Shown: positions 38,854 to 64,000, counted from the first letter of the stretch. The stretch is DNA of 64,000 nt from an uncultured Bacteroides sp. (GCA_964575865.1 CAZNSZ010000007.1:18931-82930), one strand, 5' to 3'. Notes: generated from the sequence alone by a model not told the origin. Numbers and translations: made by a program.

Positions 38854-38881
38854 ATTGTATAGAAGTTTTAGCGCGTTGACA

Positions 38882-42046: not shown

Positions 42047-42327
42047 AACGAAGTAGTTTTGGGTTAGTAAAGAATACAAGTTGGTCTATTAGTCTGGTAT
42101 ATATTGATTTAAACCTTGTTGTAGTTAGTGCGGCACGTAGCAATACCATACAATTATAGTATTATTTTTGGCTTGGAAACCCTTTTAAACAGTGAATTTC
42201 GGGGGGATTGCCCAAATTTTTACAGAGTCTAAATAAACCCAGGAAGGGTCGAAGGAATAAAGACTGGCTAAAAACAGCTGACCTGCCGGTCGTTGACCTT
42301 GGATCAAAGATCGCCTGTGGCCAGGGA

Positions 42328-43518: not shown

Positions 43519-43580
43519 GGGAGCGGGGATGGAAAGGAATGGAACATCGGTCTCACTTTCATTGATCTGTTCTTATTGGA

Positions 43581-44405: not shown

Positions 44406-44483
44406 GATTTCTCTGAGCTTGTTGCATGGTCGGGATTTGACTGAATGATAAACAAAACAATGGCCTTCCTGTTCGGGCGGAGC

Positions 44484-44523
44484 AAAAAAAACTGCCTTCC
44501 GGCGGGCGGTTCCGGAAGGCAGT
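44484..44523 (-). terminator. Intrinsic terminator of the second susC/susD operon
   Basis: Perfect 12-bp stem ACTGCCTTCCGG/CCGGAAGGCAGT with 9-nt loop, followed by a T-tract on the minus strand. Confidence 0.88.
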
Positions 44524-44545
44524 CCTTCACTAACCTAAAACCATC

Positions 44546-50889: not shown

Positions 50890-50929
50890 GGTCTGGTTTT
50901 TTTTTTTGGTTCAATCATTCCAGTGGGAT

Positions 50930-51838
50930 TTATTCTTTGCTGTAGGATTCATACAGGGTTGCGATACCCGCCTCGAGGTGGTCCCCCGCATGGACCACTA
51001 CCCGGTATTTCAGCCGGATGGTGCTCCCTTTTTCAAGCTGGATATGCGTCCCGTTTTCTGGCCAGTACATGGGGGTGGGGGAGAAGAACCCATAATCCCT
51101 CGTGAACCACGGGGCAGGGAACCAGTCACTGGAGGGATGCTGCAAAATGGCGATCCCTTCCGTGCCGCCCATTCGCGTTCCATGGTAATCCATCCAGGGG
51201 GACCGTTTCCCGAAGGTCCCCGCTTCGCCCAGCTCCCCTTCGGCATTCACCATCACCCCCCCGTTGATCACCGCCAGATCGGGATCCATCCGGATGCTCA
51301 GCAGCGAGTGATTGGTTTTTTCGATGGTCACATCCGTCAGCATTTCCATGGAAATGTCAAAATCGATCAGGTAGAGCGCCTCCGATGGAGCGGTCACCGT
51401 GATGATCCGGATATCCCTGACCGGGGACATGGCCCCGGGTCGTTTCCAGATATTCTCGTTCTCTATGACGACCCGGTCATGACCCGATTCCAGTATATCG
51501 GCCCTGAGGGGCACGATCTGCCCCCTCTCGGTCCCTTCCTGCCAGTAGTTTCCCCCGTTGACCCGGTCACACCCGAAGAACAGGGAGCTGTGGTGCGGGT
51601 AATTGCCGTTCCTCATGGAGGTGACCCCGGCCCCCGAGGGTCCGTTGACGGGAAAGAAGAACGGATACTTGTCGTGCTCCGACAGCATGTAGCTGGTCAG
51701 CAGGGTGCCGTCCCGCCTGATCTCGATCCGGTCCCCCAGGCGCTCTGCAGTCAATGGTTGCTGTGCCGGGGCACCCGTCGCCGCCAAGGAGCAGAGGAGT
51801 CCCAGCCAGGCCGTTTTGGGAATGGAGGATTTCATCAT
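50930..51838 (-). CDS. DUF6807 / PmoA-like family protein
   Basis: KYPFFFPV, YPHHSSLFFG, WFTRDYG, LKYRVVVHAG; signal peptide. Confidence 0.75.
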   Translation of the reverse strand: MMKSSIPKTAWLGLLCSLAATGAPAQQPLTAERLGDRIEIRRDGTLLTSYMLSEHDKYPFFFPVNGPSGAGVTSMRNGNYPHHSSLFFGCDRVNGGNYWQEGTERGQIVPLRADILESGHDRVVIENENIWKRPGAMSPVRDIRIITVTAPSEALYLIDFDISMEMLTDVTIEKTNHSLLSIRMDPDLAVINGGVMVNAEGELGEAGTFGKRSPWMDYHGTRMGGTEGIAILQHPSSDWFPAPWFTRDYGFFSPTPMYWPENGTHIQLEKGSTIRLKYRVVVHAGDHLEAGIATLYESYSKE

Positions 51839-53106
51839 GGGTATTGTTCGTTGGATTCACGAGCGTTGATTTCCACCTGCGGAGGCTCGCCGAATGCCCG
51901 CCAGTACTGTTCCGGCGCTTCTTCGGAGAGACTGCCGTCAAAAACCAGCAGCCGGTATTTCAGGGCATAATCCTTCCCTTTTTCAAGGACCCAGGGGTTG
52001 TGGCGTATGGGGCAGAATTCGAAGTAGAGGTCCCCCCGGCCCCCGTTGGCATCCACCGGCCAGACGCGCATGGGCTCCGGAAATTCACGGTTGGAAGGGT
52101 GTCCCATAAACAGGATCCCGCTCCTTCCGGCACCGCTCCCCGACTCTCCTTCCACCATGCACCAGCGCGCCTTGGTGCCGTCTGCCGTGAGCCGGTCATT
52201 TTGTTCCGAGGTGAGCACCGTGCTGTTGTCCCTGTGCCAGCGTTCTGTGGCCCGGAAACCGATGCCTCCGCCGTAACGGTATGCATCCAGAATGATCCCG
52301 GAATCCAGGGGGGTATTCAGGGTGGTGGTGTAGTCGATCAGCCATACCTGTTCGTTTCCCGTATTCCAGACCCTCACATCAAGCACCTCGCTGATGGCCA
52401 GCCGGTCCTCACCGGGCGCACCGAAATCAACGTGCTCCTGGAGCGCCCTGAATCCCGAATAGACCGGTCCCTCCTGCCGGGAGATGAACCCGCTGAACCT
52501 CACGGTACCCTCTCCCTTGTTCAGGTTCCAGAAGTCCACTTCCCTCCCGTTGATATGTGTTTTGGTCCACGGTCCCCAGATCCCGTAATGGTGGTAATGG
52601 TCCGGGGGCTGGATCCGTGTCAGCACCTCGCCTCCGGGTGACCAGAGGGGATGGATGAAACCGGAACGTTTGAAGAGGGGGCTGATCCCTTCGGGTGGCC
52701 AGACCGTTCGGAACTGGTAACCGAGCACCGGCCGGCCTTCTTTTTCCATTTGCAGCAATCCATGTTTTTCTTCCAGACTGACCGGTCCCTCCGGTGGTGC
52801 GGCATCCCCCCTTTCAATGATGTACTGCCTGCTGCTTCCTGCAGGCGTCATTCCCCCCAGGATGAACCAGAGGGTGGCCGAGTGACCGTATTCCATCTGG
52901 CACGGGACGGGAACTGTCCCGTCATTCCGGATTTCCTTCAGGACCAGGGGCCCCTGGTCCTCGTTATAATCAATCGTGCTGAGCGGGATCCCCACCGGGC
53001 AATCGGCACGGTCCGATGCTCCTGCGTGGACCGTGATGGTTGCCACAGGTTGTCCGGACAGTGAAAGATTAAGCAAGAGCAGGGGGATCAGTGAAAGGAA
53101 TCTCAT
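51835..53106 (-). CDS. DUF6807 / PmoA-like family protein with extra N-terminal domain
   Basis: RSGFIHPL, DHYHHYGIWGPW, VDFWN, YRYGGGIGFRA, LKYRLLVFDG; signal peptide. Confidence 0.75.
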   Translation of the reverse strand: MRFLSLIPLLLLNLSLSGQPVATITVHAGASDRADCPVGIPLSTIDYNEDQGPLVLKEIRNDGTVPVPCQMEYGHSATLWFILGGMTPAGSSRQYIIERGDAAPPEGPVSLEEKHGLLQMEKEGRPVLGYQFRTVWPPEGISPLFKRSGFIHPLWSPGGEVLTRIQPPDHYHHYGIWGPWTKTHINGREVDFWNLNKGEGTVRFSGFISRQEGPVYSGFRALQEHVDFGAPGEDRLAISEVLDVRVWNTGNEQVWLIDYTTTLNTPLDSGIILDAYRYGGGIGFRATERWHRDNSTVLTSEQNDRLTADGTKARWCMVEGESGSGAGRSGILFMGHPSNREFPEPMRVWPVDANGGRGDLYFEFCPIRHNPWVLEKGKDYALKYRLLVFDGSLSEEAPEQYWRAFGEPPQVEINARESNEQYP

Positions 53107-53164
53107 GGGGTCGGGTCAGGAATTTGTATACAGGTTTAAAACTGTAGATAAAAATAGGGGAAAA

Positions 53165-53178
53165 TGCAATCGGTTGCA
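53165..53178. promoter_or_regulatory. LacI-type operator TGCAATCGGTTGCA between the divergent DUF6807 operon and lacI
   Basis: Identical to 49379-49392; 12 nt upstream of a TATATTTG box. Confidence 0.8.
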
Positions 53179-53190
53179 AATAATAATCTT

Positions 53191-53198
53191 TATATTTG
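53191..53198 (+). promoter_or_regulatory. -7 promoter box (TATATTTG) of the LacI-family gene
   Basis: Exact TAnnTTTG match 44 nt upstream of ATG 53243. Confidence 0.7.
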
Positions 53199-53242
53199 AA
53201 ATTCACAATCCGTTTGACAGCCCTTGCACCACCCTTCCGACC

Positions 53243-54295
53243 ATGACCCATAAAAAGGAAGTGACCATTTACGATATCGCCGAGGCACTGAAAATTTCGG
53301 CTTCAACCGTCAGCCGGGGCCTCAGGGACCATCCTGCCCTCCGCAGGGAGACGGTCCGGCGGATCAAGGAAGTGGCCAGGGAAATGGGTTATCAGCAGAA
53401 CGCTTTCGCCAGCAACCTGCGGAGCAACCGTTCCAATACCATCGGTGTGATTCTTCCGAGGCTGGACAGCAATTTCCAGTCCTCGGTGGTGGCCGGCATC
53501 GAAAAAAAGGTGAACCAGCATGGGTACAACCTGATCATCAGCCAGTCGCGGGAAAGCAAGGCGAAGGAAAACGCCAACATCGACACCATGTTCAACAGCA
53601 GGGTGGACGGACTGCTGGTTTCGCTGGCGTGCGATACCTGCGACCTTTCCCACTTCAACAACATGCTGCGCAAGGGGATCCCGGTGGTGCTCTTCGACAG
53701 GGTCAAGGAGCATCCCGATTACAGTTGTTCACGGGTGGTGATCGACAATGTGAAAGCCGGCCGCGATGCAGTGGCCCATCTGCTGGATGAAGGATGCTGC
53801 CGGATCATGTACGTGGGGGATAACCTGACAGGCAGTGTATATGCCGACCGGCACCGGGGGTACATGGAAGCCCTTGCGGAAAGGAAGATCCCCTATGATC
53901 CGGACCTCTCTTACATCACACCCCTGGATGAAAGGTCCGGTGAAAGGGTGGTGGAGCGGATCCGGGAACTGGATGCCCTCCCGGATGGCATCTTCGCCGC
54001 CAATGACACCTCGGCCGTTTCGATCATCTGCGAGCTGAAGCAGAACGGGTACAGGGTCCCGGAGGATGTGGCCGTGGTGGGATTCAACGATGTGCATATT
54101 GCCCGGGTGATCGATCCCCCCCTGACCACCATCCGGTATCCCGGGGAGGAGATGGGAGAAGTGGCCGCCACCACACTGATCGAGATCCTCACCGGCGGCG
54201 AGGCGGTGACCAGGAAGACCGTGGTGCTGGACCACCAGCTGGTGGTCCGTAAGTCATCCATGAAGCACCTGAATGAACCGCATGCGGTCTCCTGA
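53243..54295 (+). CDS. LacI family transcriptional regulator
   Basis: VTIYDIAEALKISASTVSRGL HTH; sugar-binding domain with VVGFND. Start moved to ATG 53243. Confidence 0.95.
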   Translation: MTHKKEVTIYDIAEALKISASTVSRGLRDHPALRRETVRRIKEVAREMGYQQNAFASNLRSNRSNTIGVILPRLDSNFQSSVVAGIEKKVNQHGYNLIISQSRESKAKENANIDTMFNSRVDGLLVSLACDTCDLSHFNNMLRKGIPVVLFDRVKEHPDYSCSRVVIDNVKAGRDAVAHLLDEGCCRIMYVGDNLTGSVYADRHRGYMEALAERKIPYDPDLSYITPLDERSGERVVERIRELDALPDGIFAANDTSAVSIICELKQNGYRVPEDVAVVGFNDVHIARVIDPPLTTIRYPGEEMGEVAATTLIEILTGGEAVTRKTVVLDHQLVVRKSSMKHLNEPHAVS

Positions 54296-54335
54296 TTGCG
54301 GGCTATTTTCATTATCTTGGGGGCTCATTTCATCT

Positions 54336-55343
54336 ATGATGGATCATCATCTCCCTTTCCATCCGATCCTGATGCATTTTGCAGCCAGATATGCCGGATA
54401 CAGCTACGGTGCATTTGCCGCTGACCACCGGGTACTGGTGGAGAGCAACCTGCGATGCCAGGAAGCCTTCGGCCTTGATGCGGTGGGCCTCATCTCCGAT
54501 CCATACCGGGAGACCGCCGCCTTCGGCGCCCGGATCACCTTCCCGGAGGAGGCAGTCCCCCGTTGCCACGGTCCCGTCGTCAGAAACATGGAGGATCTGA
54601 AGGGATTGAAAAATCCCGACGTGTACAGGGCAGAACGCACCCGGGACCGGATCCTGGCGGGAAAAGCGCTGCGAAAAGCGGCGGATCCCTCCATCCCCGT
54701 GATCGGCTGGATCGAGGGCCCGCTGGCCGAATCGTGCAACCTGGCCGGCGTCAACGAGGTGCTGCTCCGGCTCTACATGGATCCCGGTTTTGTCCGTATG
54801 CTGATCGACAGGGTGATGGTCACTGCAAAGGAGTTCGCCAGGGCACAGGTGGAAGCCGGGTGCGGGATCATCGGGGTAGGGGATGCCATCTGCTCACAGA
54901 TCTCCGCAGAGAATTACCGTGAGTTTGTCCGCGAGAAGCACCGGGAACTCTTCGGATATATCCACTCCCTGGGGGCCAGGGTGAAACTGCATATCTGCGG
55001 GAACATCACCCACCTGCTGGAGGAACTGCCTTACTCAGGGCCGGATATCGTAGACCTGGACTGGATGGTGGATATGGATAAAGCCAGGGAGTTACTGGGT
55101 CCGGGGATCACCAGGTGCGGCAACCTGGATCCTGTGGGAGTCATCCAGGAGAAAAAGCAGGAGGAGGTCTATGCGGCGACCAGGGGGCTGTGCGAGCGCG
55201 AGGAGGGACGGGATTTCATTCTGTCGGGAGGGTGCGAGATCACCGTGAACACGCCCCCCGGCCACCTGCGGGCCATGCGTGATGCCTCCCTTTCAGGCGG
55301 CGCCGAATCCGGCCGAAAACAAGCCAATCACTCATTTAAATGA
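54336..55343 (+). CDS. Uroporphyrinogen decarboxylase / MtaA-CmuA superfamily protein
   Basis: PVIGWIEGPLA, KLHICGN, CGNLDPV, ILSGGCEI. Start uncertain (54273 or 54336). Confidence 0.8.
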   Translation: MMDHHLPFHPILMHFAARYAGYSYGAFAADHRVLVESNLRCQEAFGLDAVGLISDPYRETAAFGARITFPEEAVPRCHGPVVRNMEDLKGLKNPDVYRAERTRDRILAGKALRKAADPSIPVIGWIEGPLAESCNLAGVNEVLLRLYMDPGFVRMLIDRVMVTAKEFARAQVEAGCGIIGVGDAICSQISAENYREFVREKHRELFGYIHSLGARVKLHICGNITHLLEELPYSGPDIVDLDWMVDMDKARELLGPGITRCGNLDPVGVIQEKKQEEVYAATRGLCEREEGRDFILSGGCEITVNTPPGHLRAMRDASLSGGAESGRKQANHSFK

Positions 55344-56113
55344 AACATCCTATGAGACCTTACATGCTTACAGAATCCTACTGGCCGGAGGTCAGGGAAC
55401 GTGACTACCGGCTGGCCGTGCTGCCCTGGGGAGCCACAGAGGCCCATAACCTGCACCTTCCTTACGGCACCGACAATTTCGAAACCGATGCCCTGGTGCA
55501 GGAGGCCGCACGGATGGCATGGGAACGCGGTGCGGGAGTGATCGTGCTTCCCACCATCCCCGTCGGGGTCAATACCGGCCAGCACGATATCAGGCTGACC
55601 CTCAATTTTCACCCCTCCACACAGCAGGCGATCCTGGAGGACCTGGCCGAAAGCCTGGACAACCACGGGATCGACAAGCTGCTGGTGGTGAACGGGCACG
55701 GAGGAAACGATTTCAGGCAGATGATCAGGGAGGTGGGGAGCCACTTTCCGGACCTGCTCATCGCCACCTGCAACTGGTTCCAGTCGGTGGACAAGACGGC
55801 AATCTTCGAGAACGGGGGGGACCATGCCGATGAGATGGAGACCAGCCTGATGATGTTTGCCCATCCCGAAAAGGTGAAACCGCCGGAGACGGCAGGAGAA
55901 GGCAGGTCCAAACGGTTCAGTGTGGAGGCGCTCAATGAATCATGGGCCTGGACCGAGCGGAAATGGAGCCGGACCACCGCGGACACCGGGATCGGTAACC
56001 CGAGAAAAGCCACCCGCGAGAAGGGGGAGCGCTATTTCAGCGAGGTTACCAAAAAGCTTGCTGACCTCATGACCGGCCTGGCGGCCACCGACGCGTCTGA
56101 CCTGTACCGGTAA
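55340..56113 (+). CDS. Creatininase family amidohydrolase
   Basis: LPWGATEAHNLHLPYGTD, NGHGGN, HADEMETS, GIGNP. Confidence 0.9.
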   Translation: MKHPMRPYMLTESYWPEVRERDYRLAVLPWGATEAHNLHLPYGTDNFETDALVQEAARMAWERGAGVIVLPTIPVGVNTGQHDIRLTLNFHPSTQQAILEDLAESLDNHGIDKLLVVNGHGGNDFRQMIREVGSHFPDLLIATCNWFQSVDKTAIFENGGDHADEMETSLMMFAHPEKVKPPETAGEGRSKRFSVEALNESWAWTERKWSRTTADTGIGNPRKATREKGERYFSEVTKKLADLMTGLAATDASDLYR

Positions 56114-56128
56114 TCCGGCAGATCAGTT

Positions 56129-56136
56129 TAGTTTTG
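56129..56136 (+). promoter_or_regulatory. -7 promoter box (TAGTTTTG) for the GMC operon
   Basis: Exact TAnnTTTG match in the AT-rich gap before ATG 56190. Confidence 0.6.
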
Positions 56137-56189
56137 TTCTAAAGGGATAATTCTTCAATTTGGTGACGGAACCCACCCGGTCGAACCAG

Positions 56190-56747
56190 ATGGCACTCAC
56201 CCGGAGAACATTCATCAGGACAGGGATGGCAGGCTTCGGCAGCCTGCTCCTGATGCCTTCCTGCTTCAGACAGGAACGGTCACCCTACCTTTTTTTCACG
56301 CCCGCCGAAGCGGCCTGCCTGATCCCGCTCTGCGAGCAGATCATTCCGGCCGATGACCATGGCGGAGGGGCCACCGAGGCAGGTGTCATCCATTACATCG
56401 ACCGGCAGCTGCTGGCGGTTTTTGATTATGACCAGGTGGTCTACCAGCGCGGCATCGATGCCCTGCAGGCCACCTGCCTGGAACGTTTCGGAAGGAGGTA
56501 TGAACAGCTGGATGCGGAAAGCCAGCTCCGGCTTGCCGAACAGATGGACACGGGCACCATCGGGGGGGAAGGCTGGGAGGGAACGGATCCCCGGCGTTTC
56601 TTCGGGCTGGTCAGGGACCACACCATGCAGGGCTTTTACGGGCCGCCCCGGCACGGGGGGAACCGGGACTATATGAGCTACCGGATGATGGACCTGGATT
56701 TTCCGCTGGTGGTGGGACGCAACCATTACCAACACCTCACACCCTGA
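56190..56747 (+). CDS. Gluconate-2-dehydrogenase subunit 3 family (Tat small subunit)
   Basis: LTRRTFI; IIPADD.GGGA.EAGV..YIDRQL; HTMQGFYG..RHGGNRD. Confidence 0.88.
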   Translation: MALTRRTFIRTGMAGFGSLLLMPSCFRQERSPYLFFTPAEAACLIPLCEQIIPADDHGGGATEAGVIHYIDRQLLAVFDYDQVVYQRGIDALQATCLERFGRRYEQLDAESQLRLAEQMDTGTIGGEGWEGTDPRRFFGLVRDHTMQGFYGPPRHGGNRDYMSYRMMDLDFPLVVGRNHYQHLTP

Positions 56748-56750
56748 ACC

Positions 56751-58406
56751 ATGGCGGCACAACATGTCAACGCAGTGATCGTAGGCGCCGGTGCAGGCGG
56801 GGGGGTGGTGGCCAAGGAGCTGGCCACCAACGGCCTGTCGGTTGTGCTCCTGGAACGGGGCGGATGGCCGGACTATGACAGGCACATCAACGATGAGCTG
56901 ATCTCGCAGCGGACCCAGGTGCTCGGTTCCGCATTCGGACCCGACCACAGGCTGCACCCCCGCGTCCGCATATACGGAGAAGGGAACCGGCAGGTGGTGA
57001 CCCCCATCCGGGGGGACTACGGCCACAATGCAGCGTGCGTGGGTTCCGGAACGGTCAGCTACGGGGCCATGGCGTGGCGCTTCATGCCGGAAGATTTCAG
57101 GATGAAATCCACCTATGGCCACGTGGAGGGATCCACCCTGGAGGACTGGCCCATTTCCTATGAGGAACTGGAACCCTATTATGAACAGGCCGAATGGGAA
57201 ATCGGGGTTGCCGGGGAGGCCCGGGACAATCCCTTTGCAGCACCCAGGGAAAGGGAGTATCCCATGCCCGCGTTCGAGAACAACAAGGAGGGAAAGGTGC
57301 TGGCAGCCGCCTGCAGAAGGCTCGGACTGCACCCTTTCCCCATTCCCATGCTCCGCAACTCGGTCCCCTACAATGGAAGGCCCGCCTGTATCAGGAACAG
57401 GACCTGCGTGGGATATGCCTGCCCGGTGGACGGAAAGAACGGAACCCACAACACGGTGATCCCCGTGGCCATGGCCACAGGCAACTGTGAGGTCAGGGTG
57501 CACTGCCAGGTGGCCGAGGTGATGAGCAACGACCGGGGCAGGGTGACCGGGGTAAGGTACTTCGATGAAAACAACCGGGAGCAGGTCCAGACCGCCGACC
57601 TGGTGGTGCTGGCCGCCTCCGCCACGGAGACTGCCAGGCTGCTGCTGAACTCCACCAGCAAATTGTTCCCCAACGGGCTGGGGAACAACCATGACTGGGT
57701 GGGGCGCAACCTCCAGGGCCATGCCTATACCGGCGCTCACGGGCTCTTCGATCATGAGGTCACTGACTATGCGGGACCGGGGGCCACCTTCGGGTTCTGC
57801 GACTACAACCACCACAACGAAGGGATTATCGGCGGCGGCCTTCTCTGCAATGAATTCAACGCGCTTCCCTACCTCTTTACCGGGATCAGGCCCCCTGGAG
57901 CGGCAAGGTGGGGCAGGGAGCACAAGGATTTCCAGATGCGGAACATCAAACGGATCGCGGCCCTCCACGGGCCCATCCAGGAGATGCCCAACTTTGAGGC
58001 CCGTGTCACGGTCGACCCCACGGTGAAGGACCACTGGGGAATCCCCGTGGCGGCGCTCTCCGGTGAGCGCCATGCCCTGGACCGGGTGCACTGCCAGTGG
58101 CTTTCGGAGCGTGCCGAGGAGGTGATCAGGGAAGCGGGAGCGGTAAAAACCTGGCTCAGTGTGGGGGGAAGGGGTCTCAGCGGGGGTCAGCATCAGTGCG
58201 GAACAGCCAGGATGGGTGATGATCCCCGTACCTCGGTGACCAACCGCTACGGACAGGTCCATGACATCGACAACCTCTTTGTGGCAGACGGCAGTGTTTT
58301 TGTGACCGGCGGAGGATTCAATCCGGTGCTGACCATCATGGCCGTTGCCTACCGCACCGGGGCCTACATCAACAGCACCTGGAAGGGAACCCGCTTAAAA
58401 TCCTGA
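56751..58406 (+). CDS. GMC family FAD oxidoreductase large subunit
   Basis: VIVGAGAGGG, VGSGTVSYGA, HQCGTARMG, NLFVADGS, FNPVLT; no signal peptide. Confidence 0.92.
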   Translation: MAAQHVNAVIVGAGAGGGVVAKELATNGLSVVLLERGGWPDYDRHINDELISQRTQVLGSAFGPDHRLHPRVRIYGEGNRQVVTPIRGDYGHNAACVGSGTVSYGAMAWRFMPEDFRMKSTYGHVEGSTLEDWPISYEELEPYYEQAEWEIGVAGEARDNPFAAPREREYPMPAFENNKEGKVLAAACRRLGLHPFPIPMLRNSVPYNGRPACIRNRTCVGYACPVDGKNGTHNTVIPVAMATGNCEVRVHCQVAEVMSNDRGRVTGVRYFDENNREQVQTADLVVLAASATETARLLLNSTSKLFPNGLGNNHDWVGRNLQGHAYTGAHGLFDHEVTDYAGPGATFGFCDYNHHNEGIIGGGLLCNEFNALPYLFTGIRPPGAARWGREHKDFQMRNIKRIAALHGPIQEMPNFEARVTVDPTVKDHWGIPVAALSGERHALDRVHCQWLSERAEEVIREAGAVKTWLSVGGRGLSGGQHQCGTARMGDDPRTSVTNRYGQVHDIDNLFVADGSVFVTGGGFNPVLTIMAVAYRTGAYINSTWKGTRLKS

Positions 58407-59467
58407 TGCGATCCATGAAGAAACGAAAGGGCATACTCCTCCTGATCACCATCCCGGTTCTGGCCGTTATCCTGCTGACGGGGTACGCAGGATGGAATGC
58501 GGCCAACCCGGAGCGGACCTGTGCCTCCTGCCATGAGATCGTTCCATCCATGGAGCTGTGGCAGCAATCGGCCCACCGGGAGGTCAGTTGCGCGGACTGC
58601 CACGGAACCGCCCTTTCCAACGGATTCCACAGCCTCAGGGAGAAAGCCGGGATGCTTTTCGGTCATTTCGGGAGAAGGCAGGATGCCGCTCCCGTCCGGC
58701 TGGACGAGGCCGGGGTGCTGGAGGTGATGGAAGCGTGCGTGGAGTGCCACATGGAAGAGTACCGGAGCTGGCTCTCAGGGGGGCATTCGGCCACCTATGC
58801 CGACATCTTTCTGAATGAAGCGCACAACCGCAAGGAGCAGCTGTACCCGGACTGCTTCCGGTGCCACGGGATGTATTACGGGGGCACCATCGGGGAGCTG
58901 GTACAGCCCATTTCCACAGCGGGCCCATGGACCATGACGGAGCGTGCAATGGAATCCCGGGCGGTGATCCCCTGCCTGGCCTGTCATCCCATCCATATGG
59001 AAAACCGGTTGCGGGGCAGGGCCGGATCCCTGGACGATCCCGGTGCCATCTTCTATGAACGGGAGGAAAGGGACCCCCTGATGGGGCTCTACCTGAGATC
59101 GGACCGGATGCACCTGAGGGCCGACATGCTGCCCAAGCCCGACATGTTCCGGCAGGGCGAGGCGGTCCATGTATCGGATGACCCGGCACAGCGGCTATGT
59201 GTTCAATGCCATGCCCCCAACTGGGCCCATGAGGCGGGTACAGAGGATGACCGGACGCCCGTTGGGGTCCATGAGGGTCTCAGCTGCCTGGCCTGTCACC
59301 AGGGTCATTCCAATGATCCCAGGGGCTCCTGTGCCCGCTGTCACCCTGCCCTCTCCAACTGTGGCCTGGATGTGGAGACCATGAACACCACGTATGCCAA
59401 ACGGGAGAGTCCCCACGATATTCATTTTGTAGCCTGCACAGATTGCCACGATCCGGTACCGGAATGA
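58406..59467 (+). CDS. Membrane-anchored multiheme cytochrome c (9 CxxCH)
   Basis: CASCH, CADCH, CVECH, CFRCH, CLACH, CVQCH, CLACH, CARCH, CTDCH; N-terminal TM helix. Confidence 0.9.
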   Translation: MRSMKKRKGILLLITIPVLAVILLTGYAGWNAANPERTCASCHEIVPSMELWQQSAHREVSCADCHGTALSNGFHSLREKAGMLFGHFGRRQDAAPVRLDEAGVLEVMEACVECHMEEYRSWLSGGHSATYADIFLNEAHNRKEQLYPDCFRCHGMYYGGTIGELVQPISTAGPWTMTERAMESRAVIPCLACHPIHMENRLRGRAGSLDDPGAIFYEREERDPLMGLYLRSDRMHLRADMLPKPDMFRQGEAVHVSDDPAQRLCVQCHAPNWAHEAGTEDDRTPVGVHEGLSCLACHQGHSNDPRGSCARCHPALSNCGLDVETMNTTYAKRESPHDIHFVACTDCHDPVPE

Positions 59468-59485
59468 TGACCCATCAAAGAGACA

Positions 59486-60769
59486 ATGAAACGACGACAG
59501 TTTCTCAACCAGTCGGCCGGCCTTGCCCTGGGAACCCTTGGAGGACCGGGGCTCTATCAGGAGACGAACGCTGCGGAACAAAGGGAAAGGACCAACCCGA
59601 TGCGTAACCGGGAACCCTTTCCGCTGGCCATCACCATGTGGGAATTCTCCTGGCTGGAGCGGAGATGGCCCGGAGCGGGGTATGAGGATTGGGACCGGGC
59701 GCTCACGGAGCTCACAGAGCGGGGATACGATGCGGTCCGCATCGATGCCTTCCCGCACCTGATCAGCCACGATCCCGAAAAAGAGTACCTGTTGCTGCCC
59801 CACTGGAGCGTGCAGGACTGGGGGAGCCCGGCCATTAACCGGGTCCGGGTCCAGCCCCACCTTAACCGGTTCCTCGAACGGTGCAGGGCACACGGTATCA
59901 AAGCGGGGCTCTCTTCCTGGTTCCGGCAGGACGAAGAGGACCTGCGCATGAAGCTGGACACTCCCGAAAAGCTGGGAGCGGCATGGCTGGCCGTCCTGGA
60001 TTCCATCCGGGAGGGCGGGGTGCTGGATGCGGTCTGCTATGTGGATCTTTGCAATGAATGGACGGGGCCGGCCTGGTGTCCTTTCTTTGTCAACGATCCG
60101 CCGGAAGCGGTATGGACGGGATGGGACACTGCGAAATCAAAGCAGTGGATGGAACGCGCCATTGCCGTCATCAAAGAGAAATACCCGGAGATTCCCGCCA
60201 CCTTCTCCTTCACGGGGGAGGTCACCCCGGACACCCCGGGCAAGGGGCCGTTCCCCATGCTGGATTTCCTGGAGCCGCACATCTGGATGTCCGCTTCCAA
60301 CGGGGATGAGTACTACCGGGAGGTGGGCTATACCTACGACAGGTTCGAACTGGAGAGTTACAGGAACCTGGCCCTCAAGGGAAAAGGGGTGTATGAGAAC
60401 CGCAAAGCATACTGGCAGGAGGGATTGAAGCGGCAGATCCGCCTGGCGGCAGAATGGTCGGAAAAGCTGAACACCGGACTGGTCACCACCGAATGCTGGG
60501 GGGTGGTTGATTTCAAGGACGGACCGCTGCTGGACTGGGGGTATGTGAAGGAGCTGTGTGCACTGGGCACGGAGGAGGCTGCCGGAACGGGAAGATGGAT
60601 CGCTCTGGCCACCAGTAATTTCTGTGGTCCCCAGTTCGTCGGGATGTGGCGGGATGTGGAATGGCACAGGAGATTAACGGATACCATCCACCGGGCCACG
60701 CTGGCCCCTGACCTGATGGCCTCACCGCTGGTGAGGCGGCTGGCCGGTACAGGGGCCTATTCGCGATAA
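59486..60769 (+). CDS. Tat-exported cellulase-like (clan GH-A) protein
   Basis: MKRRQFL; DLCNEW and LVTTECWG as putative acid/base and nucleophile. Confidence 0.7.
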   Translation: MKRRQFLNQSAGLALGTLGGPGLYQETNAAEQRERTNPMRNREPFPLAITMWEFSWLERRWPGAGYEDWDRALTELTERGYDAVRIDAFPHLISHDPEKEYLLLPHWSVQDWGSPAINRVRVQPHLNRFLERCRAHGIKAGLSSWFRQDEEDLRMKLDTPEKLGAAWLAVLDSIREGGVLDAVCYVDLCNEWTGPAWCPFFVNDPPEAVWTGWDTAKSKQWMERAIAVIKEKYPEIPATFSFTGEVTPDTPGKGPFPMLDFLEPHIWMSASNGDEYYREVGYTYDRFELESYRNLALKGKGVYENRKAYWQEGLKRQIRLAAEWSEKLNTGLVTTECWGVVDFKDGPLLDWGYVKELCALGTEEAAGTGRWIALATSNFCGPQFVGMWRDVEWHRRLTDTIHRATLAPDLMASPLVRRLAGTGAYSR

Positions 60770-60808
60770 AATATCCGCCCCCCGGTGCGGGGAGTTGAAC
60801 AAATGGCT

Positions 60809-60816
60809 TATTTTTG
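60809..60816 (+). promoter_or_regulatory. -7 promoter box (TATTTTTG) for nagB
   Basis: Exact TAnnTTTG match about 95 nt upstream of ATG 60912. Confidence 0.55.
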
Positions 60817-60911
60817 TTCTGAAATCACTCAGTGACCGGAACCGCGACCGCAATGGCAACCGTTACTGAAACCGCAATTTAGCTACCGATAAGAACCACA
60901 ACACTGCTGCC

Positions 60912-63233
60912 ATGAATTTTAGATCAGAAGTCGAAAAGGCGTTTTTCCATCTTTCCGGTTCTCCTGAACCAACCACCCGCATCCCTTATATTGTGGTGGA
61001 TAATTTCCCACTGCTGGGATTGATGACCTCGCTGCGTTTCCTTGAATGGGCAGGAGAGAATCCGGAGGGGGTGATCAGCCTGCCCACCGGCAAGACCCCT
61101 GAATATTTCATCAAGTGGACCGGGTACCTGCTGGAGAACTGGGAAGGAAAGAAGGTCAAAGAACTGAGAAGCAAATACGGGATCGGAGGCATGGCCAAAC
61201 CGAGCCTTAAAAAGCTGCAGTTCGTGCAGATCGATGAATTCTATCCCATCAGCTCCAAGCAGCACAACAGTTTCTTTAACTATGTCAGAAAATATTATAT
61301 CGGAGGTTTCGGACTCGATCCGAAAAAATCCCTGCTGATCAATTCCGATGAGATCCGGCTGGAAGGGGGAATGCATTTTAAGGAGGTCTTTCCTGAGAGC
61401 AGGGTCGACCTTTCACTGCGTTACCGGGAACCCAAGAGCCAGTTCGAGCGGATCCAGCAGCAGTCCATCTTTGCTATCGACGACTGGTGCACCGAATACG
61501 AGCAGCAGGTAAGGGAGAAAGGCGGGATTGGCTTCTTCCTGGGAGGGATAGGCCCCGACGGGCACATCGCCTTCAATACCCGGGGCTCGGACCACTACTC
61601 CACCACAAGGCTCACCGAAACCAACTTTGAAACCCAGGCGGTTGCAGCCTCCGACCTGGGGGGGATCGAGATCTCACGCAACCGGCTGGTGATCACCATC
61701 GGGCTGGAGACCATCACCCATAACCCGGAGGCCGTCGCCCTGATCTTTGCTGCGGGTGAAGCCAAGGCCCCCATGGTGCGCGACGCGCTGGAGCAGGAGC
61801 CCTCCAACCTCTATCCGGCCAGTGTGCTGGGCAAGCTGCCCAATGCACGTTTCTACCTCACCACGGGAGCTGCTTCCATGCTGCAGGCTTCCGTGGACGC
61901 ATTTTACAAGCACGGCGACTGGTCCCAGGATAAGACCGACCGGGCGGTCATCGACCTCTGCGTAAAGCTGCAGAAATACGGACACCACCTGACCCTGGCC
62001 GACCTGAGGGATGACCGCTACTGCCGGATGATCCCCGGGCTGGGGGAGGAGACCGTCTCCTCGGTGATCGAATCCACCGTCGGAAAATTCCAGAAAGGGA
62101 TGTTCGCCGAACAGAACCAGGTCTACTACCATACCGGTCCCCACCACGACGACATTATGCTGGGCCTCAATCCGCATATCCACAGGCTGATGAGGAACGA
62201 AACCAATTCCAATTACTTTTCTGTTCTCACGTCAGGATTTACCGCGGTGACCAATAAGTTCGTCATCGATGCCCTGGAAGATACCCGGCATTTCCTGGAT
62301 GCGGGGCTCATCTCCATGACCCGCTACCCCGATTTTTTTGAAAAGGGATACCTCTACAAGCGGGACAAGGACGTGAACCACTACCTGCTGAAGGTAGCTT
62401 CCGGAGAGCATTACGAACTGCGCAGGGGACTGGCCCACCGGCTGGTCAGGGACATAGTGGGCCTCTACAAGGTGAAGAGCATCGAGCAGCTCAGGGACCG
62501 GATCAACACCATCCTTCACATACTGAACGACAGCTATGACGGGGAGATCAACACCCCCGACATACAGAAGCTGAAGGGGATGATCCGGGAGTTCGAAGAA
62601 GAGCTGGTGTGGGCCTGTTTCGGGATCCAGACCAAAAACGTGCACCACCTCCGCCTGGGATTCTATACGGGCGATATCTTTACGGAACAGCCCAAAAGGG
62701 ACCGGGACGTGGCGCCGATCCTGGAGAATCTGAGGGAGATCAAGCCCACGGTGGTGAGCCTGGCCTTCGATCCCGAGGGAAGCGGGCCGGATACACACTA
62801 CAAGGTGCTGCAGGTGATCGCAGAAGCGCTGCGGATGTGGAGCCAGGAGGAGGACCTCTCCAAACTCCGCATCTGGGGGTACCGGAACGTATGGTACCGT
62901 TTCCATCCGGCGGAGGCCAATCGCATCGTTCCGGTATCGCTGAATGCCATGGGGGTGATGGACAATGCGTTCACGTACAGCTATCTGAGCCAGGTGGACG
63001 CCTCATTCCCCAGCTACCAGCATGACGGGAAATTCTCCGACCTCACACAGCGGATATGGGTGGAACAGCTGAAGACAGTGCAGCTGCTGCTGGGAAAAAA
63101 TTATTTCTACCAGAACGACAGCCCGCGGGTCCGCACGACCCATGGCCTGCTCTTTTTCAAGGAGATGAACCTGGAAGAGTTCCTCGGGCACGCCAGGGAA
63201 CTGGAAAAATCCATGGAGGGCGTGGTCTTTTGA
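60912..63233 (+). CDS. nagB: Long-form glucosamine-6-phosphate deaminase fused to a PIG-L/LmbE-like domain
   Basis: LPTGKTP, QIDEFYP, GGIGPDGHIAFN; C-terminal PHHDDIMLG and PDTHYK. Confidence 0.8.
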   Translation: MNFRSEVEKAFFHLSGSPEPTTRIPYIVVDNFPLLGLMTSLRFLEWAGENPEGVISLPTGKTPEYFIKWTGYLLENWEGKKVKELRSKYGIGGMAKPSLKKLQFVQIDEFYPISSKQHNSFFNYVRKYYIGGFGLDPKKSLLINSDEIRLEGGMHFKEVFPESRVDLSLRYREPKSQFERIQQQSIFAIDDWCTEYEQQVREKGGIGFFLGGIGPDGHIAFNTRGSDHYSTTRLTETNFETQAVAASDLGGIEISRNRLVITIGLETITHNPEAVALIFAAGEAKAPMVRDALEQEPSNLYPASVLGKLPNARFYLTTGAASMLQASVDAFYKHGDWSQDKTDRAVIDLCVKLQKYGHHLTLADLRDDRYCRMIPGLGEETVSSVIESTVGKFQKGMFAEQNQVYYHTGPHHDDIMLGLNPHIHRLMRNETNSNYFSVLTSGFTAVTNKFVIDALEDTRHFLDAGLISMTRYPDFFEKGYLYKRDKDVNHYLLKVASGEHYELRRGLAHRLVRDIVGLYKVKSIEQLRDRINTILHILNDSYDGEINTPDIQKLKGMIREFEEELVWACFGIQTKNVHHLRLGFYTGDIFTEQPKRDRDVAPILENLREIKPTVVSLAFDPEGSGPDTHYKVLQVIAEALRMWSQEEDLSKLRIWGYRNVWYRFHPAEANRIVPVSLNAMGVMDNAFTYSYLSQVDASFPSYQHDGKFSDLTQRIWVEQLKTVQLLLGKNYFYQNDSPRVRTTHGLLFFKEMNLEEFLGHARELEKSMEGVVF

Positions 63234-63305
63234 CCGGCAGTCAGGGTATTGCAACTGTTTTCCCAGGCCATCAGGAAGGCCGGGGAATGATTCCCGTTGG
63301 GAAAG

Positions 63306-64000
63306 TCATCGCAAGGGAACGATCCGGACCGGATCCTGGTTGGGTTGCGCCTCAAAGGTAATGAAACCTCCCCCGCTGTCTGAACCCTCAAGGTGGGCCA
63401 GCTCCTTTCCGTCCTGGGTCACCCGGACCCTTTCCCAGTCTTCGGGAAGCCGGGTCCTGACGGTGAGGGGAAACGCATAGCGCTCCGGATCCAGGGAGTG
63501 GGTGATGCTCACCAGGATCTCTTTTCTTCTCATGGTGGTTTCTGCCTTCCCGTTCATGCGTTCCCTCATGTACCTGGTCACATCCCGGAAAGGGGCCACC
63601 CATAGGTCCTCACCATGGGTATGGAGCTTGCCGAAATAGTGGTGGAGGGTATCCCCGGGAATGGCCTCCCAGCCGATGCCGTCCACCCCGTGAAATACCA
63701 GCACCAGCCAAATGTTGTCATGGGACAGGCAGGTATCGATCCAGGATTCCATGAGCGACAGCGGTGTGCGGGAAAGGGGCCCCCGCTGCCATTGTACATA
63801 GGCCCTTTCACTGTCACCGGGAGCCGCCCTGCTGCTGCGGTTCAGCTCCTCCAGCCAGGGGTGCGGCATGCGGTTGCGAAGGGCAGGGTAGAGGGACAGG
63901 GCAATTTCCATCACCCTTTCATTTTCAGTGCCATATGGGCACTCGCAGGAGAAGGTGTGCTCCGTTCCCAGCCGGGCGGCGATCTCCTCTTTGCATTTTT
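63306..64000 (-). CDS. Polysaccharide deacetylase family protein (5' end outside window)
   Basis: Frame stays open to the window edge (...HTFSCECPYGTENERVMEIA...); WLVLVFHGVDGIGWE motif. Confidence 0.7.
   Translation of the reverse strand, partial: KCKEEIAARLGTEHTFSCECPYGTENERVMEIALSLYPALRNRMPHPWLEELNRSSRAAPGDSERAYVQWQRGPLSRTPLSLMESWIDTCLSHDNIWLVLVFHGVDGIGWEAIPGDTLHHYFGKLHTHGEDLWVAPFRDVTRYMRERMNGKAETTMRRKEILVSITHSLDPERYAFPLTVRTRLPEDWERVRVTQDGKELAHLEGSDSGGGFITFEAQPNQDPVRIVPLR

What the first reader, a model, noticed from the sequence alone, without database searches (positions are those of the whole stretch)
56190..59467. GMC dehydrogenase complex with a nine-heme NapC/NrfH-like cytochrome as electron exit
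Seen: Tat small subunit, signal-less GMC subunit with a Cys cluster (CIRNRTCVGYAC), and a cytochrome coupled through a TGATG overlap at 58404-58408. It has 9 CxxCH motifs and starts with a TM helix and CASCH..W..SAH..VSCADCH, resembling NapC/NrfH quinol dehydrogenases. Known: LacABC and gluconate or sorbitol dehydrogenase complexes use mono- to tri-heme subunits, and the flavoprotein hitch-hikes on the Tat subunit. Inference: a nonaheme wire links periplasmic sugar oxidation to menaquinone or an external acceptor.
Basis: partly seen in the sequence, partly recalled or inferred. Interest (0 to 1): 0.75.

Follow-up and report, generated by a model that had tools for sequence, protein, structure and literature searches.

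The report
Sugar dehydrogenase wired to nine-heme cytochrome
Three tightly linked genes encode a periplasmic flavin and iron-sulfur dehydrogenase whose usual three-heme partner is replaced by a membrane-anchored nine-heme cytochrome; this trio is conserved in hundreds of Bacteroidota and soil or peat bacteria, and I found no description of it.

Summary
Window 56190-59467 (+) encodes three proteins:
- a twin-arginine (Tat) small subunit (PF13618);
- a signal-less GMC flavoprotein homologous to the catalytic subunits of Burkholderia FAD-glucose dehydrogenase and Gluconobacter fructose dehydrogenase, with all three 3Fe-4S cysteines present;
- a 353-aa cytochrome joined to the GMC gene by a TGATG overlap. 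It has an N-terminal membrane helix and nine CxxCH motifs. Its first ~150 residues resemble NrfH (NapC/NirT type) and its C-terminal part resembles c7-type cytochromes.

The partnership is real. The cytochrome gene lies next to a GMC gene in all 158 of 160 related loci that hold flanking DNA, and nothing else is conserved around the trio. The loci come from Bacteroidota, Ignavibacteriota, Gemmatimonadota, Verrucomicrobiota and a distant peat/soil subfamily.

The cytochrome reaches no curated family threshold except a generic c7 domain, has no close solved structure, and appeared in none of my literature searches.

Best reading (inferred, not shown): a periplasmic sugar or polyol dehydrogenase passes electrons FAD -> 3Fe-4S -> nine hemes -> menaquinone. 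It is a new variant of the known flavoprotein-cytochrome dehydrogenase complexes. The substrate, the acceptor and the reason for nine hemes remain open.

The parts
56190..56747 (+). Small subunit (185 aa from ATG 56190; the mechanical ORF starts at TTG 56160): Gluconate_2-dh3 family, Tat-exported, predicted lipoprotein 'hitchhiker' carrier for the flavoprotein
   Evidence: PF13618 E 4.5e-25. Sequence read. RR.F motif and Cys25 invariant in 15/15 aligned homologues. RR motif found in 60 of the 64 called small subunits; 2 of the other 4 are miscalled or cut ORFs.
56199..56219 (+). Twin-arginine motif TRRTFIR of the small subunit
   Evidence: Direct reading; R5, R6 and F8 invariant.
56262..56264 (+). 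Cys25 of the small subunit, the +1 cysteine of a lipobox-like LMPSC: predicted lipid attachment site
   Evidence: Invariant column C25 in alignment A4. Same position in nearly all of 64 homologues. Lipoprotein status is inferred from the motif only.
56751..58406 (+). Catalytic subunit: signal-less GMC flavoprotein of the FADGDH/FDH type (551 aa)
   Evidence: PF00732 and PF05199. PDB 6a2u_B E 3.5e-53 and 7w2j_A E 4.5e-52, both near full length. H481 (GGQHQxGTxRMG) and N524 invariant in 69 sequences.
57387..57422 (+). Cys cluster C213-x5-C219-x4-C224 (CIRNRTCVGYAC): predicted 3Fe-4S ligands
   Evidence: Aligns with Cys212, Cys218 and Cys222 of B. cepacia FADGDH alpha, with one inserted residue. 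Those three ligate the 3Fe-4S cluster (PMC6719666). All three invariant in 69/69. The Cys213 equivalent (inter-subunit disulfide in FADGDH) is Ile here.
58404..58408 (+). TGATG stop/start overlap coupling the GMC and cytochrome genes
   Evidence: The estimated gap between GMC stop and cytochrome start is <=0 nt in 97 and 1-30 nt in 38 of 157 related loci.
58406..59467 (+). Nine-heme c-type cytochrome (353 aa), predicted membrane-anchored electron-transfer subunit
   Evidence: Nine CxxCH motifs. More than 2000 homologues of ~350 aa. 97 of 99 have nine motifs.
58430..58489 (+). Predicted N-terminal transmembrane signal-anchor helix (about residues 9-28), preceded by MRSMKKRK
   Evidence: Best 19-residue Kyte-Doolittle mean is 2.5 at the median and at least 1.45 in 99/99 relatives. 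Net positive charge lies before the helix. Heme-1 Cys follows about 11 residues after it. AF2 helix 4-32.
58439..58867 (+). NrfH (NapC/NirT-type) tetraheme module (residues 12-154, hemes 1-4)
   Evidence: TIGR03153 E 8.6e-12, model positions 4-133 of 138, 45 bits, below the equivalog cut-off of 134. 100/101 relatives hit it. PF03264 scores 23.4 bits against a cut-off of 24.1. PDB NrfH 2j7a_C E 1.4e-3 with the family profile.
59168..59344 (+). c7/c3-type multiheme segment (residues 255-313, hemes 6-8); heme 9 follows at C344
   Evidence: PF14522 E 1.6e-9, 37.9 bits against a cut-off of 24.8. PDB 3oue_A E 7e-8 over residues 264-351. Partial matches to the DmsE decaheme and NrfB models.
53240..56113 (+). 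Context, not core: LacI-type regulator (53240-54295), URO-D/MtaA-like protein (54273-55343), creatininase-family amidohydrolase (55340-56113), directly upstream on the same strand
   Evidence: Conserved only in the closest relatives L001-L008.
59486..63233 (+). Context, not core: Tat-signal PF12876 'sugar-binding cellulase-like' protein (59486-60769) and NagB/LmbE-like 773-aa protein (60912-63233), directly downstream on the same strand
   Evidence: The PF12876 gene starts 19 nt after the cytochrome stop. Conserved only in close relatives.

Best explanation
The three genes encode one periplasm-facing, membrane-bound dehydrogenase complex.

Assembly. The GMC flavoprotein folds in the cytoplasm with FAD and a 3Fe-4S cluster. 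It is then carried across the membrane by the Tat signal of the small subunit, which is itself probably lipid-anchored.

Catalysis and electron path. The enzyme oxidises a hydroxyl group of a sugar, glycoside or polyol. Electrons pass FAD -> 3Fe-4S -> the heme chain of the nine-heme cytochrome. That cytochrome is held in the cytoplasmic membrane by its N-terminal helix. Its NrfH-like tetraheme module sits at the membrane surface and reduces menaquinone, the quinone of Bacteroidota, feeding the respiratory chain.

Relation to known enzymes. The nine-heme protein replaces, without homology, the three-heme class-I cytochrome c subunit of the proteobacterial enzymes.

Shown: gene content, homologies, conserved cofactor ligands, strict co-occurrence and tight gene coupling.
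Inferred: complex formation, substrate class, direction of electron flow, and menaquinone as acceptor.
For: - The GMC subunit is homologous over nearly its full length to FADGDH alpha and the FDH large subunit.
- The three 3Fe-4S cysteines, the catalytic His481 and Asn524 are invariant in 69 orthologues.
- The small subunit belongs to PF13618 and has an invariant RR.F motif.
- The cytochrome has nine invariant CxxCH motifs. Nine further His are invariant in the 15-sequence alignment A1; six of them stay invariant in 101 sequences and H140, H275 and H340 are nearly so. That is enough for bis-His ligation.
- A hydrophobic N-terminal helix is present in 99/99 relatives, with heme 1 about 11 residues beyond it, as expected for an NrfH-type anchor.
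- The NrfH model matches across all four N-terminal hemes.
- Synteny: 157 of 160 loci have the GMC C-terminus immediately upstream of the cytochrome. One more has the GMC gene immediately downstream. The other two have no upstream DNA. This holds down to 36-44% cytochrome identity.
- Only these three genes are conserved around each other. There is no fourth membrane subunit and no outer-membrane conduit.
- NapC/NirT-type cytochromes have been proposed as quinone reductases elsewhere, namely ImoA (PMC9600427); the same proposal for Nitrosomonas membrane c552 is from my own knowledge.
- From my own knowledge of redox potentials, alcohol/carbonyl couples lie well below menaquinone, so the oxidative direction is the favourable one.
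Against: - No experiment exists, and the substrate is unknown. Identity to characterised glucose and fructose dehydrogenases is low (full-length alignment at E ~1e-53, percent identity not computed), and the neighbouring genes vary between lineages.
- NapC/NrfH proteins normally oxidise quinol rather than reduce quinone (PMC9600427).
- NrfH residues Met49, Lys82 and Asp89 align with Ile45, His75 and Gly82 here. Their role at the NrfH quinol site is recalled from the NrfH structure papers. A quinone site is therefore not demonstrable.
- Pfam PF03264 and NCBIfam NrfH are matched only below their cut-offs.
- Nine hemes are more than a simple quinone reductase needs.
- The AF2 model is weak exactly over residues 31-97, where a quinone site would lie.
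Confidence: 0.6

Rival explanations
1. Same complex, different acceptor. The N-terminal helix is only an anchor, or a cleaved signal. The nine-heme chain passes electrons to periplasmic or extracellular acceptors instead of the quinone pool. Candidates are soluble cytochromes, terminal reductases or oxidases, and metals or humics.
For: Nine hemes exceed what quinone reduction needs. NrfH residues Met49, Lys82 and Asp89 are not conserved. The C-terminal part resembles c7, NrfB and MtrA-type wire segments. Some loci have a monoheme cytochrome c lipoprotein a few genes away, in 7 of 80.
Against: No outer-membrane porin-cytochrome and no other redox partner is conserved near the trio in 160 loci. 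The N-terminal tetraheme module with a membrane helix is conserved throughout the family. That is hard to explain if the membrane end has no redox role.
Confidence: 0.2
2. Reverse direction. The NrfH-like cytochrome oxidises menaquinol, as NapC, NrfH and CymA do, and delivers electrons to the flavoprotein. The flavoprotein then acts as a periplasmic respiratory reductase for an unknown oxidised organic substrate.
For: The canonical role of the NapC/NirT/NrfH family is quinol oxidation (PMC9600427). Many hosts are facultative or anaerobic Bacteroidales.
Against: All characterised relatives of the flavoprotein are dehydrogenases (PMC6719666). The catalytic His/Asn pair is invariant. From my own knowledge of redox potentials, carbonyl reduction by menaquinol is uphill.
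Confidence: 0.1
3. No functional link. The cytochrome merely lies next to a two-subunit GMC dehydrogenase and serves another pathway.
For: Many GMC plus small-subunit pairs in Bacteroidota are annotated without a cytochrome (my own knowledge, not tested here).
Against: Adjacency in 158 of 158 informative loci across several phyla and down to ~38% cytochrome identity. The estimated gap is at most 30 nt in 135 of 157 loci.
Confidence: 0.03

Closest known systems
FAD-dependent dehydrogenase complexes of Proteobacteria: Burkholderia cepacia glucose dehydrogenase (gamma-alpha-beta; PDB 6A2U, 8GRJ) and Gluconobacter japonicus fructose dehydrogenase (PDB 7W2J). The wider group of gluconate, 2-ketogluconate, sorbitol and lactose (LacABC) dehydrogenases is from my own knowledge.
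   Same: GMC catalytic subunit without a signal peptide, E ~1e-53 over its full length. Three Cys ligands of a surface 3Fe-4S cluster. Tat 'hitchhiker' small subunit of PF13618. A c-type cytochrome gene in the same operon.
   Different: The known enzymes use a ~45-50 kDa three-heme class-I cytochrome c (PMC6719666, PMC5979317). Here the partner is an unrelated 353-aa nine-heme protein with an N-terminal membrane helix. The small subunit carries an invariant lipobox cysteine. The inter-subunit disulfide cysteine (Cys213) is absent. The hosts are Bacteroidota, which use menaquinone rather than ubiquinone (my own knowledge).
NrfH / NapC / NirT / CymA tetraheme quinol dehydrogenases (PF03264, TIGR03153; PDB 2J7A)
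   Same: N-terminal membrane helix followed by four CxxCH motifs in ~150 residues. The match spans model positions 4-133 of 138 of the NrfH model and is seen in 100/101 relatives.
   Different: Scores lie below the curated cut-offs (45 against 134 bits; 23.4 against 24.1 bits). The NrfH CxxCHxM methionine, Lys82 and Asp89 are not conserved. Five further hemes are appended. The partner is a flavoprotein dehydrogenase, not a reductase, so the expected direction is quinone reduction.
NapC/NirT-type cytochromes proposed to reduce quinone: Nitrosomonas membrane cytochrome c552 (cM552) and Sideroxydans ImoA
   Same: They are precedents for electrons entering the quinone pool through a NapC/NirT-type anchor from a periplasmic oxidation (ImoA: PMC9600427; cM552: my own knowledge).
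   Different: Those are tetrahemes fed by soluble cytochromes. ImoA itself was shown to oxidise quinol. No flavoprotein partner is involved.
Extended NapC/NirT relatives: TorC/DorC (five hemes) and Geobacter ImcH (seven hemes) (my own knowledge; ImcH preprint listed)
   Same: A NapC/NirT-like membrane module extended by further hemes within one polypeptide.
   Different: They serve TMAO/DMSO reductases or extracellular electron transfer as quinol oxidases. None of the listed NCBIfam models names TorC, DorC or ImcH. They have a different number of hemes and a different partner.
c7-type multidomain cytochromes of Geobacter (GSU1996 fragment, PDB 3OUE; PF14522)
   Same: Residues 264-351 (hemes 6-9) align with c7-type repeats at E 7e-8. 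PF14522 is matched above its cut-off.
   Different: Those are soluble periplasmic wires made of repeated triheme domains. Here there is a single such segment, fused to an NrfH-like anchor.
Desulfovibrio nine-heme cytochrome c (9HcA) (my own knowledge)
   Same: Nine hemes.
   Different: It gave no match in PDB sequence searches at E <= 1. It is soluble, built of c3-like domains, and part of a different transmembrane complex.

Membership tests
FADGDH/FDH-type flavoprotein-cytochrome dehydrogenase complexes | GMC catalytic subunit homologous to FADGDH alpha or the FDH large subunit | tested here: met
   6a2u_B E 3.5e-53 (residues 4-537) and 7w2j_A E 4.5e-52. PF00732 and PF05199 above their cut-offs.
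FADGDH/FDH-type flavoprotein-cytochrome dehydrogenase complexes | Three cysteines ligating a 3Fe-4S cluster (Cys212, Cys218, Cys222 in B. cepacia) | tested here: met
   C213, C219 and C224 align with them (ligands from PMC6719666). Invariant in 69/69 orthologues. The presence of the cluster itself is not testable here.
FADGDH/FDH-type flavoprotein-cytochrome dehydrogenase complexes | Small Tat-signal 'hitchhiker' subunit (PF13618) together with a catalytic subunit that has no signal peptide | tested here: met
   PF13618 at 89 bits. RR.F invariant. The GMC protein starts at its FAD-binding motif. There was no sequence-level match to the solved gamma subunit.
FADGDH/FDH-type flavoprotein-cytochrome dehydrogenase complexes | Three-heme class-I cytochrome c subunit as electron-transfer and membrane subunit | tested here: not met
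   The operon's cytochrome has nine hemes. It matches NrfH, c7 and c3-type models, and no class-I cytochrome c family appears among its matches.
NapC/NirT/NrfH quinol dehydrogenases | N-terminal transmembrane helix followed by a tetraheme domain | tested here: met
   Hydrophobic helix in 99/99 relatives. Four CxxCH motifs within residues 39-154 are covered by the TIGR03153 alignment.
NapC/NirT/NrfH quinol dehydrogenases | Score above the curated family thresholds (PF03264; TIGR03153) | tested here: not met
   PF03264 scores 23.4 against 24.1 bits, N-terminal 66 residues only. TIGR03153 scores 45.3 against 134.2 bits. Some relatives carry a precomputed PF03264 hit.
NapC/NirT/NrfH quinol dehydrogenases | NrfH-specific heme-1 CxxCHxM ligation, with Lys82 and Asp89 at the quinol site (roles recalled from the NrfH structure papers) | tested here: not met
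   The profile alignment to 2j7a_C places Ile45, His75 and Gly82 at those positions. The alignment is weak (E 1.4e-3), so shifts of a residue or two are possible. Invariant Met83 and near-invariant Lys80 lie close by.
NapC/NirT/NrfH quinol dehydrogenases | Binds and exchanges electrons with quinol or quinone | not testable with these tools
   This needs biochemistry. The AF2 model has pLDDT below 50 over residues 31-97.
c7/c3-type multiheme cytochromes (PF14522) | Score above the Pfam gathering threshold | tested here: met
   37.9 against 24.8 bits, residues 255-313. This covers a domain only, not the whole protein.
Desulfovibrio nine-heme cytochrome c (9HcA) | Sequence similarity to the solved nine-heme cytochrome | tested here: not met
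   It is absent from PDB matches at E <= 1 with either the single sequence or the 101-sequence profile.

The most novel reading that the evidence does not exclude
The nine-heme subunit may be more than a quinone-reducing anchor. It could be a long periplasmic wire and docking hub. The flavoprotein is tethered by a lipoprotein small subunit, possibly away from the cytoplasmic membrane. Several GMC paralogues can share one cytochrome, as the tandem GMC genes in L028 suggest. Electrons could then flow either into menaquinone or outward to periplasmic or extracellular acceptors. That would give Bacteroidota, Ignavibacteriota and peat/soil bacteria an unrecognised respiratory entry or exit point for periplasmic glycan oxidation.
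Probability: 0.2. Interest if true: 0.75.

Novelty: new variant of a known kind. Interest (0 to 1): 0.55.

Why it matters
Flavoprotein-cytochrome sugar dehydrogenases are known almost only from Proteobacteria. There they couple periplasmic sugar oxidation to ubiquinone, and they are the basis of direct-electron-transfer glucose and fructose biosensors.

This module shows that a large, ecologically important set of glycan degraders uses the same catalytic core with a completely different electron-transfer subunit:
- at least 567 relatives among the species-representative genomes scanned;
- at least 521 metagenome contigs of a distant subfamily.

Three consequences would follow if the proposed function is confirmed. 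Bacteroidota would gain a defined route from periplasmic carbohydrate oxidation into the menaquinone pool, which matters for energy budgets in sediments, peat and wastewater. The NapC/NrfH fold would gain a clear case of working as a quinone reductase. And a naturally nine-heme-wired FAD dehydrogenase would become available for bioelectrocatalysis.

Public annotation currently says only 'multiheme c-type cytochrome' or 'cytochrome c3 family protein'.

Tried and rejected
- AF2 with a 15-sequence alignment gave an unusable model (pLDDT 45). With 101 sequences the model reached pLDDT 72 and pTM 0.67, but residues 31-97 stayed below 50.
- Foldseek of that model against the PDB found nothing. The best E was 3, to spliceosome chains. 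Fold-level classification therefore failed, as often happens with heme-free models of multiheme cytochromes.
- PDB sequence searches with the small subunit, alone and as a 15-sequence profile, found no relative. Its family assignment rests on Pfam only.
- Seven literature searches found no description of this gene trio. They combined GMC, gluconate 2-dehydrogenase subunit 3, multiheme, NapC, NrfH, nonaheme, Bacteroidetes, Ignavibacteria, hitchhiker and polysaccharide utilisation. The library lacks most subscription journals, so this is absence of evidence only.
- The promoter and terminator scan of 52800-64000 gave fewer sites than shuffled controls and is uninformative for Bacteroidota.
- A search for paralogues of the three genes inside the window found none.
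- I looked for a conserved fourth gene, such as an NrfD-like protein, cytochrome b or an outer-membrane conduit. None was found. The next most frequent neighbour family, Gfo/Idh/MocA, occurs in only 18 of 80 loci.
- I rejected relatedness to the Desulfovibrio nine-heme cytochrome (no PDB hit).
- I rejected chance adjacency.


Full report
**1. What is in the sequence**

On the + strand, three reading frames follow each other almost without spacing.

The first is listed as 56160-56747, but it most likely starts at the ATG at 56190, giving MALTRRTFIRTGMAGFGSLLLMPSCF.... It matches Pfam PF13618, 'Gluconate 2-dehydrogenase subunit 3', at E 4.5e-25 and 89 bits against a cut-off of 23.4.

The second, 56751-58406 (551 aa), begins directly with the dinucleotide-binding motif VIVGAGAGGG and has no signal peptide. 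It matches both GMC oxidoreductase domains.

The third, 58406-59467 (353 aa), starts with the A of the GMC stop codon: TGA at 58404-58406 and ATG at 58406-58408. It has nine CxxCH motifs, at C39, C62, C111, C150, C190, C265, C294, C309 and C344.

**2. The flavoprotein and its carrier**

Against solved structures, the GMC protein aligns over nearly its whole length with two catalytic subunits:
- Burkholderia cepacia FAD-glucose dehydrogenase (6a2u_B, E 3.5e-53, residues 4-537);
- Gluconobacter japonicus fructose dehydrogenase (7w2j_A, E 4.5e-52).

Other GMC enzymes score at E 5.5e-8 or weaker.

In the B. cepacia enzyme, Cys212, Cys218 and Cys222 bind a surface 3Fe-4S cluster that hands electrons to the cytochrome subunit. 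Cys213 forms a disulfide with the small subunit (PMC6719666). In the alignment, window residues C213, C219 and C224 (CIRNRTCVGYAC) take the places of the three cluster ligands, with one inserted residue. The Cys213 equivalent is Ile.

In 69 orthologues from related loci the three cysteines are invariant. So are His481 (motif GGQHQxGTxRMG) and Asn524, which I take to be the GMC catalytic His/Asn pair.

The small subunits almost all have a twin-arginine motif. In a 15-sequence alignment R5, R6, F8 and Cys25 are invariant. Cys25 follows a lipobox-like L/F-P/S-S/A/G, so the carrier is probably a Tat-exported lipoprotein. That differs from the soluble gamma subunit of the Burkholderia enzyme.

Sequence searches of the PDB with the small subunit found nothing, so its assignment rests on Pfam.

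**3. The cytochrome**

The cytochrome passes the threshold of only one curated family, the c7-type domain PF14522 (residues 255-313, 37.9 bits against 24.8).

The N-terminal part matches the NrfH model TIGR03153 across nearly the whole model: residues 12-154 against positions 4-133 of 138, E 8.6e-12. The score of 45 bits is far below the equivalog cut-off of 134. Pfam's NapC/NirT family scores 23.4 bits against a cut-off of 24.1. Of 101 relatives scanned one by one, 100 match the NrfH model (best E 1.9e-15). All 101 match part of the DmsE decaheme model and 99 match NrfB, always partially.

In the PDB, the single sequence is closest to a Geobacter c7-type fragment (3oue_A, E 7e-8, residues 264-351). 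The 101-sequence profile is closest to Desulfovibrio NrfH (2j7a_C, E 1.4e-3, residues 19-112). That alignment puts Ile45, His75 and Gly82 at the positions of NrfH Met49, Lys82 and Asp89. I recall those three residues as the heme-1 ligand and quinol-site residues of NrfH, and their numbering fits the chain. The NrfH-specific site is therefore not conserved, although invariant Met83 and near-invariant Lys80 and His87 lie in the same helix.

All relatives with an intact N-terminus have a hydrophobic 19-residue segment (median Kyte-Doolittle mean 2.5, minimum 1.45). It is preceded by net positive charge and followed about 11 residues later by the first heme cysteine. This is the layout of a signal-anchored NrfH-type protein.

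Besides the nine CxxCH histidines, nine further histidines are invariant in the 15-sequence alignment. That is enough for bis-His ligation of every heme.

Structure prediction reached pLDDT 72 with 101 sequences but stayed poor for residues 31-97. Foldseek against the PDB found nothing.

**4. How widespread is it, and is the partnership real?**

The protein search found more than 2000 relatives of about 350 aa. The best 120 are 52-99% identical. The few names given are 'multiheme c-type cytochrome' or 'cytochrome c3 family protein', from Bacteroidales and Bacteroidota assemblies.

At 50% clustering the family is compact: 90 representatives at E <= 1e-30, most of them fragments.

The best 80 come from Bacteroidota (including the cultured Draconibacterium mangrovi GM2-18), Ignavibacteriota, Gemmatimonadota and a Puniceicoccaceae genome. 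One bin is labelled Anaerolinea (L037). Its coordinates and identities are the same as those of a Prolixibacteraceae locus (L039), so it may be mis-binned.

A second scan used a distant subfamily, 36-44% identical to the window protein. It returned 80 loci from peat, bog and soil metagenomes.

Searching all 160 loci with the window's proteins gave this result:
- 157 loci have the C-terminal end of a GMC gene immediately upstream of the cytochrome gene.
- One locus (L025) has the order small subunit - cytochrome - GMC.
- The remaining two have no upstream DNA.

So every one of the 158 informative loci has a GMC gene next to the cytochrome gene. The estimated distance between GMC stop and cytochrome start is at most 0 nt in 97 loci and 1-30 nt in 38.

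Median identity to the window proteins is 58% for the GMC subunit, 42% for the cytochrome and 39% for the small subunit.

I clustered all flanking reading frames of the first 80 loci. Only the three genes are generally conserved: the cytochrome in 80 loci, the GMC in 75 and the small subunit in at least 64. The next family, Gfo/Idh/MocA, occurs in 18. There is no fourth membrane subunit and no outer-membrane conduit.

**5. Context in this window**

The window is from a Bacteroidota genome. It holds two SusC/SusD pairs, UxuA and FG-GAP/ASPIC proteins. Next to the trio lie a Tat-signal Gfo/Idh/MocA oxidoreductase and two DUF6807 proteins on the opposite strand.

On the same strand as the trio, the run is: a LacI regulator, a URO-D/MtaA-like protein, a creatininase-family hydrolase, the trio itself, a Tat-signal PF12876 'cellulase-like' protein starting 19 nt after the cytochrome stop, and a NagB/LmbE-like 773-aa protein.

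This extended run is kept only in the closest relatives, L001-L008. It suggests a carbohydrate, possibly amino-sugar, substrate in this lineage, but it does not define the substrate of the family.

**6. Most likely mechanism**

By analogy with the solved proteobacterial enzymes, the flavoprotein folds with FAD and 3Fe-4S in the cytoplasm and is exported bound to the Tat-signal small subunit. It then oxidises a sugar, glycoside or polyol hydroxyl group and passes electrons from FAD through 3Fe-4S to the cytochrome.

Here the cytochrome is a nine-heme chain anchored by an N-terminal helix. Its NrfH-like module is placed to reduce menaquinone.

Shown: homologies, conserved ligands, topology signals and strict gene linkage.
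Inferred: physical complex, substrate class, direction and acceptor.

The direction is supported in two ways. All characterised relatives of the flavoprotein are dehydrogenases. From my own knowledge of redox potentials, alcohol/carbonyl couples lie below the menaquinone couple.

NapC/NirT proteins normally oxidise quinol, but quinone-reducing roles have been proposed for Sideroxydans ImoA (PMC9600427) and, from my own knowledge, for Nitrosomonas membrane c552. I put this model at about 0.6.

Rivals:
- The same complex discharges to periplasmic or external acceptors rather than quinone (0.2). The excess of hemes and the unconserved NrfH site favour this. The lack of any conserved downstream partner speaks against it.
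- A menaquinol-driven reductase (0.1).
- No functional link (0.03). This is contradicted by synteny.

**7. Comparison and novelty**

The catalytic core meets the tested defining features of the FADGDH/FDH-type complexes. The defining three-heme class-I cytochrome subunit is absent and is replaced by an unrelated protein.

That protein works like, and is distantly related to, NapC/NrfH anchors. It fails their curated thresholds and lacks the NrfH site residues, so I do not file it as an NrfH or NapC. It is not related to the Desulfovibrio nine-heme cytochrome.

Seven full-text searches found no description of the trio, within the limits of that library.

I rate it a new variant of a known kind. 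It is widespread, strictly conserved and functionally unannotated, but it is built from recognisable parts with a predictable role.

**8. Side observations**

- One locus, L028, has two GMC genes in tandem sharing one small subunit and one cytochrome.
- Rare relatives of the cytochrome are fused to glycoside-hydrolase-like or DUF11 domains. Each is a single cluster representative and may be a gene-calling artefact.

Noticed in passing
window 56190-56264; loci L002-L080 small-subunit genes: The small 'hitchhiker' subunit has an invariant cysteine (Cys25) after a lipobox-like L/F-P/S-S/A/G, about 19 residues beyond the twin-arginine motif. It is therefore predicted to be a Tat-exported lipoprotein, unlike the soluble gamma subunit of the Burkholderia enzyme. 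No acidic surface-export signal follows the cysteine.
   Followed up: partly
L028 4022-9044; L035 11717-13348; L083 3517-4116; L025 7450-10769: Variants of the module. L028 has small subunit - GMC - GMC - cytochrome, with tandem GMC paralogues at 65-66% identity to the window GMC. L035 and L083 carry a second GMC gene nearby. L025 has the order small subunit - cytochrome - GMC. This hints that several catalytic subunits may share one cytochrome.
   Followed up: partly
proteins P0237, P0163, P0201 (representative library): Rare relatives of the cytochrome have other architectures. P0237 has a GH42-like N-terminal domain plus about seven hemes. P0163 has a GH129-like C-terminal extension. P0201 has a signal peptide, about seven hemes and a DUF11 domain. 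Each is a single cluster representative and may be a gene-call or assembly fusion.
   Followed up: partly
window 53240-56113 and 59486-63233 (+): A same-strand run surrounds the trio: LacI regulator, URO-D/MtaA-like protein, creatininase-family hydrolase (weak similarity to the 3-dehydro-scyllo-inosose hydrolase IolN), the trio itself, a Tat-signal PF12876 'cellulase-like' protein, and a 773-aa NagB/LmbE-like protein. The run is conserved only in the closest relatives (L001-L008). Its pathway is unknown, possibly for an amino sugar or a modified sugar.
   Followed up: partly
window 49513-53106 (-): A Tat-signal Gfo/Idh/MocA oxidoreductase is followed by two DUF6807 proteins that are 21% identical to each other. 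They are divergently placed next to the LacI gene. Gfo/Idh/MocA plus DUF6807 pairs also recur downstream of the module in L021, L047 and L049.
   Followed up: no
window 29421-49228: This is a PUL-like region with two SusC/SusD pairs (38882-42079 with 37099-38892, and 46292-49228 with 44546-46291). It also holds UxuA (42328-43518), large FG-GAP/ASPIC-UnbV proteins (29421-32711 and 33468-34883) and a 648-aa protein with a Fer4_5 4Fe-4S motif (34957-36903).
   Followed up: no
L037 versus L039: A bin labelled 'uncultured Anaerolinea' (L037) gives the same gene coordinates and identities as a Prolixibacteraceae locus (L039). It is probably a mis-binned Bacteroidota contig, so the presence of the module in Chloroflexota is doubtful.
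   Followed up: no
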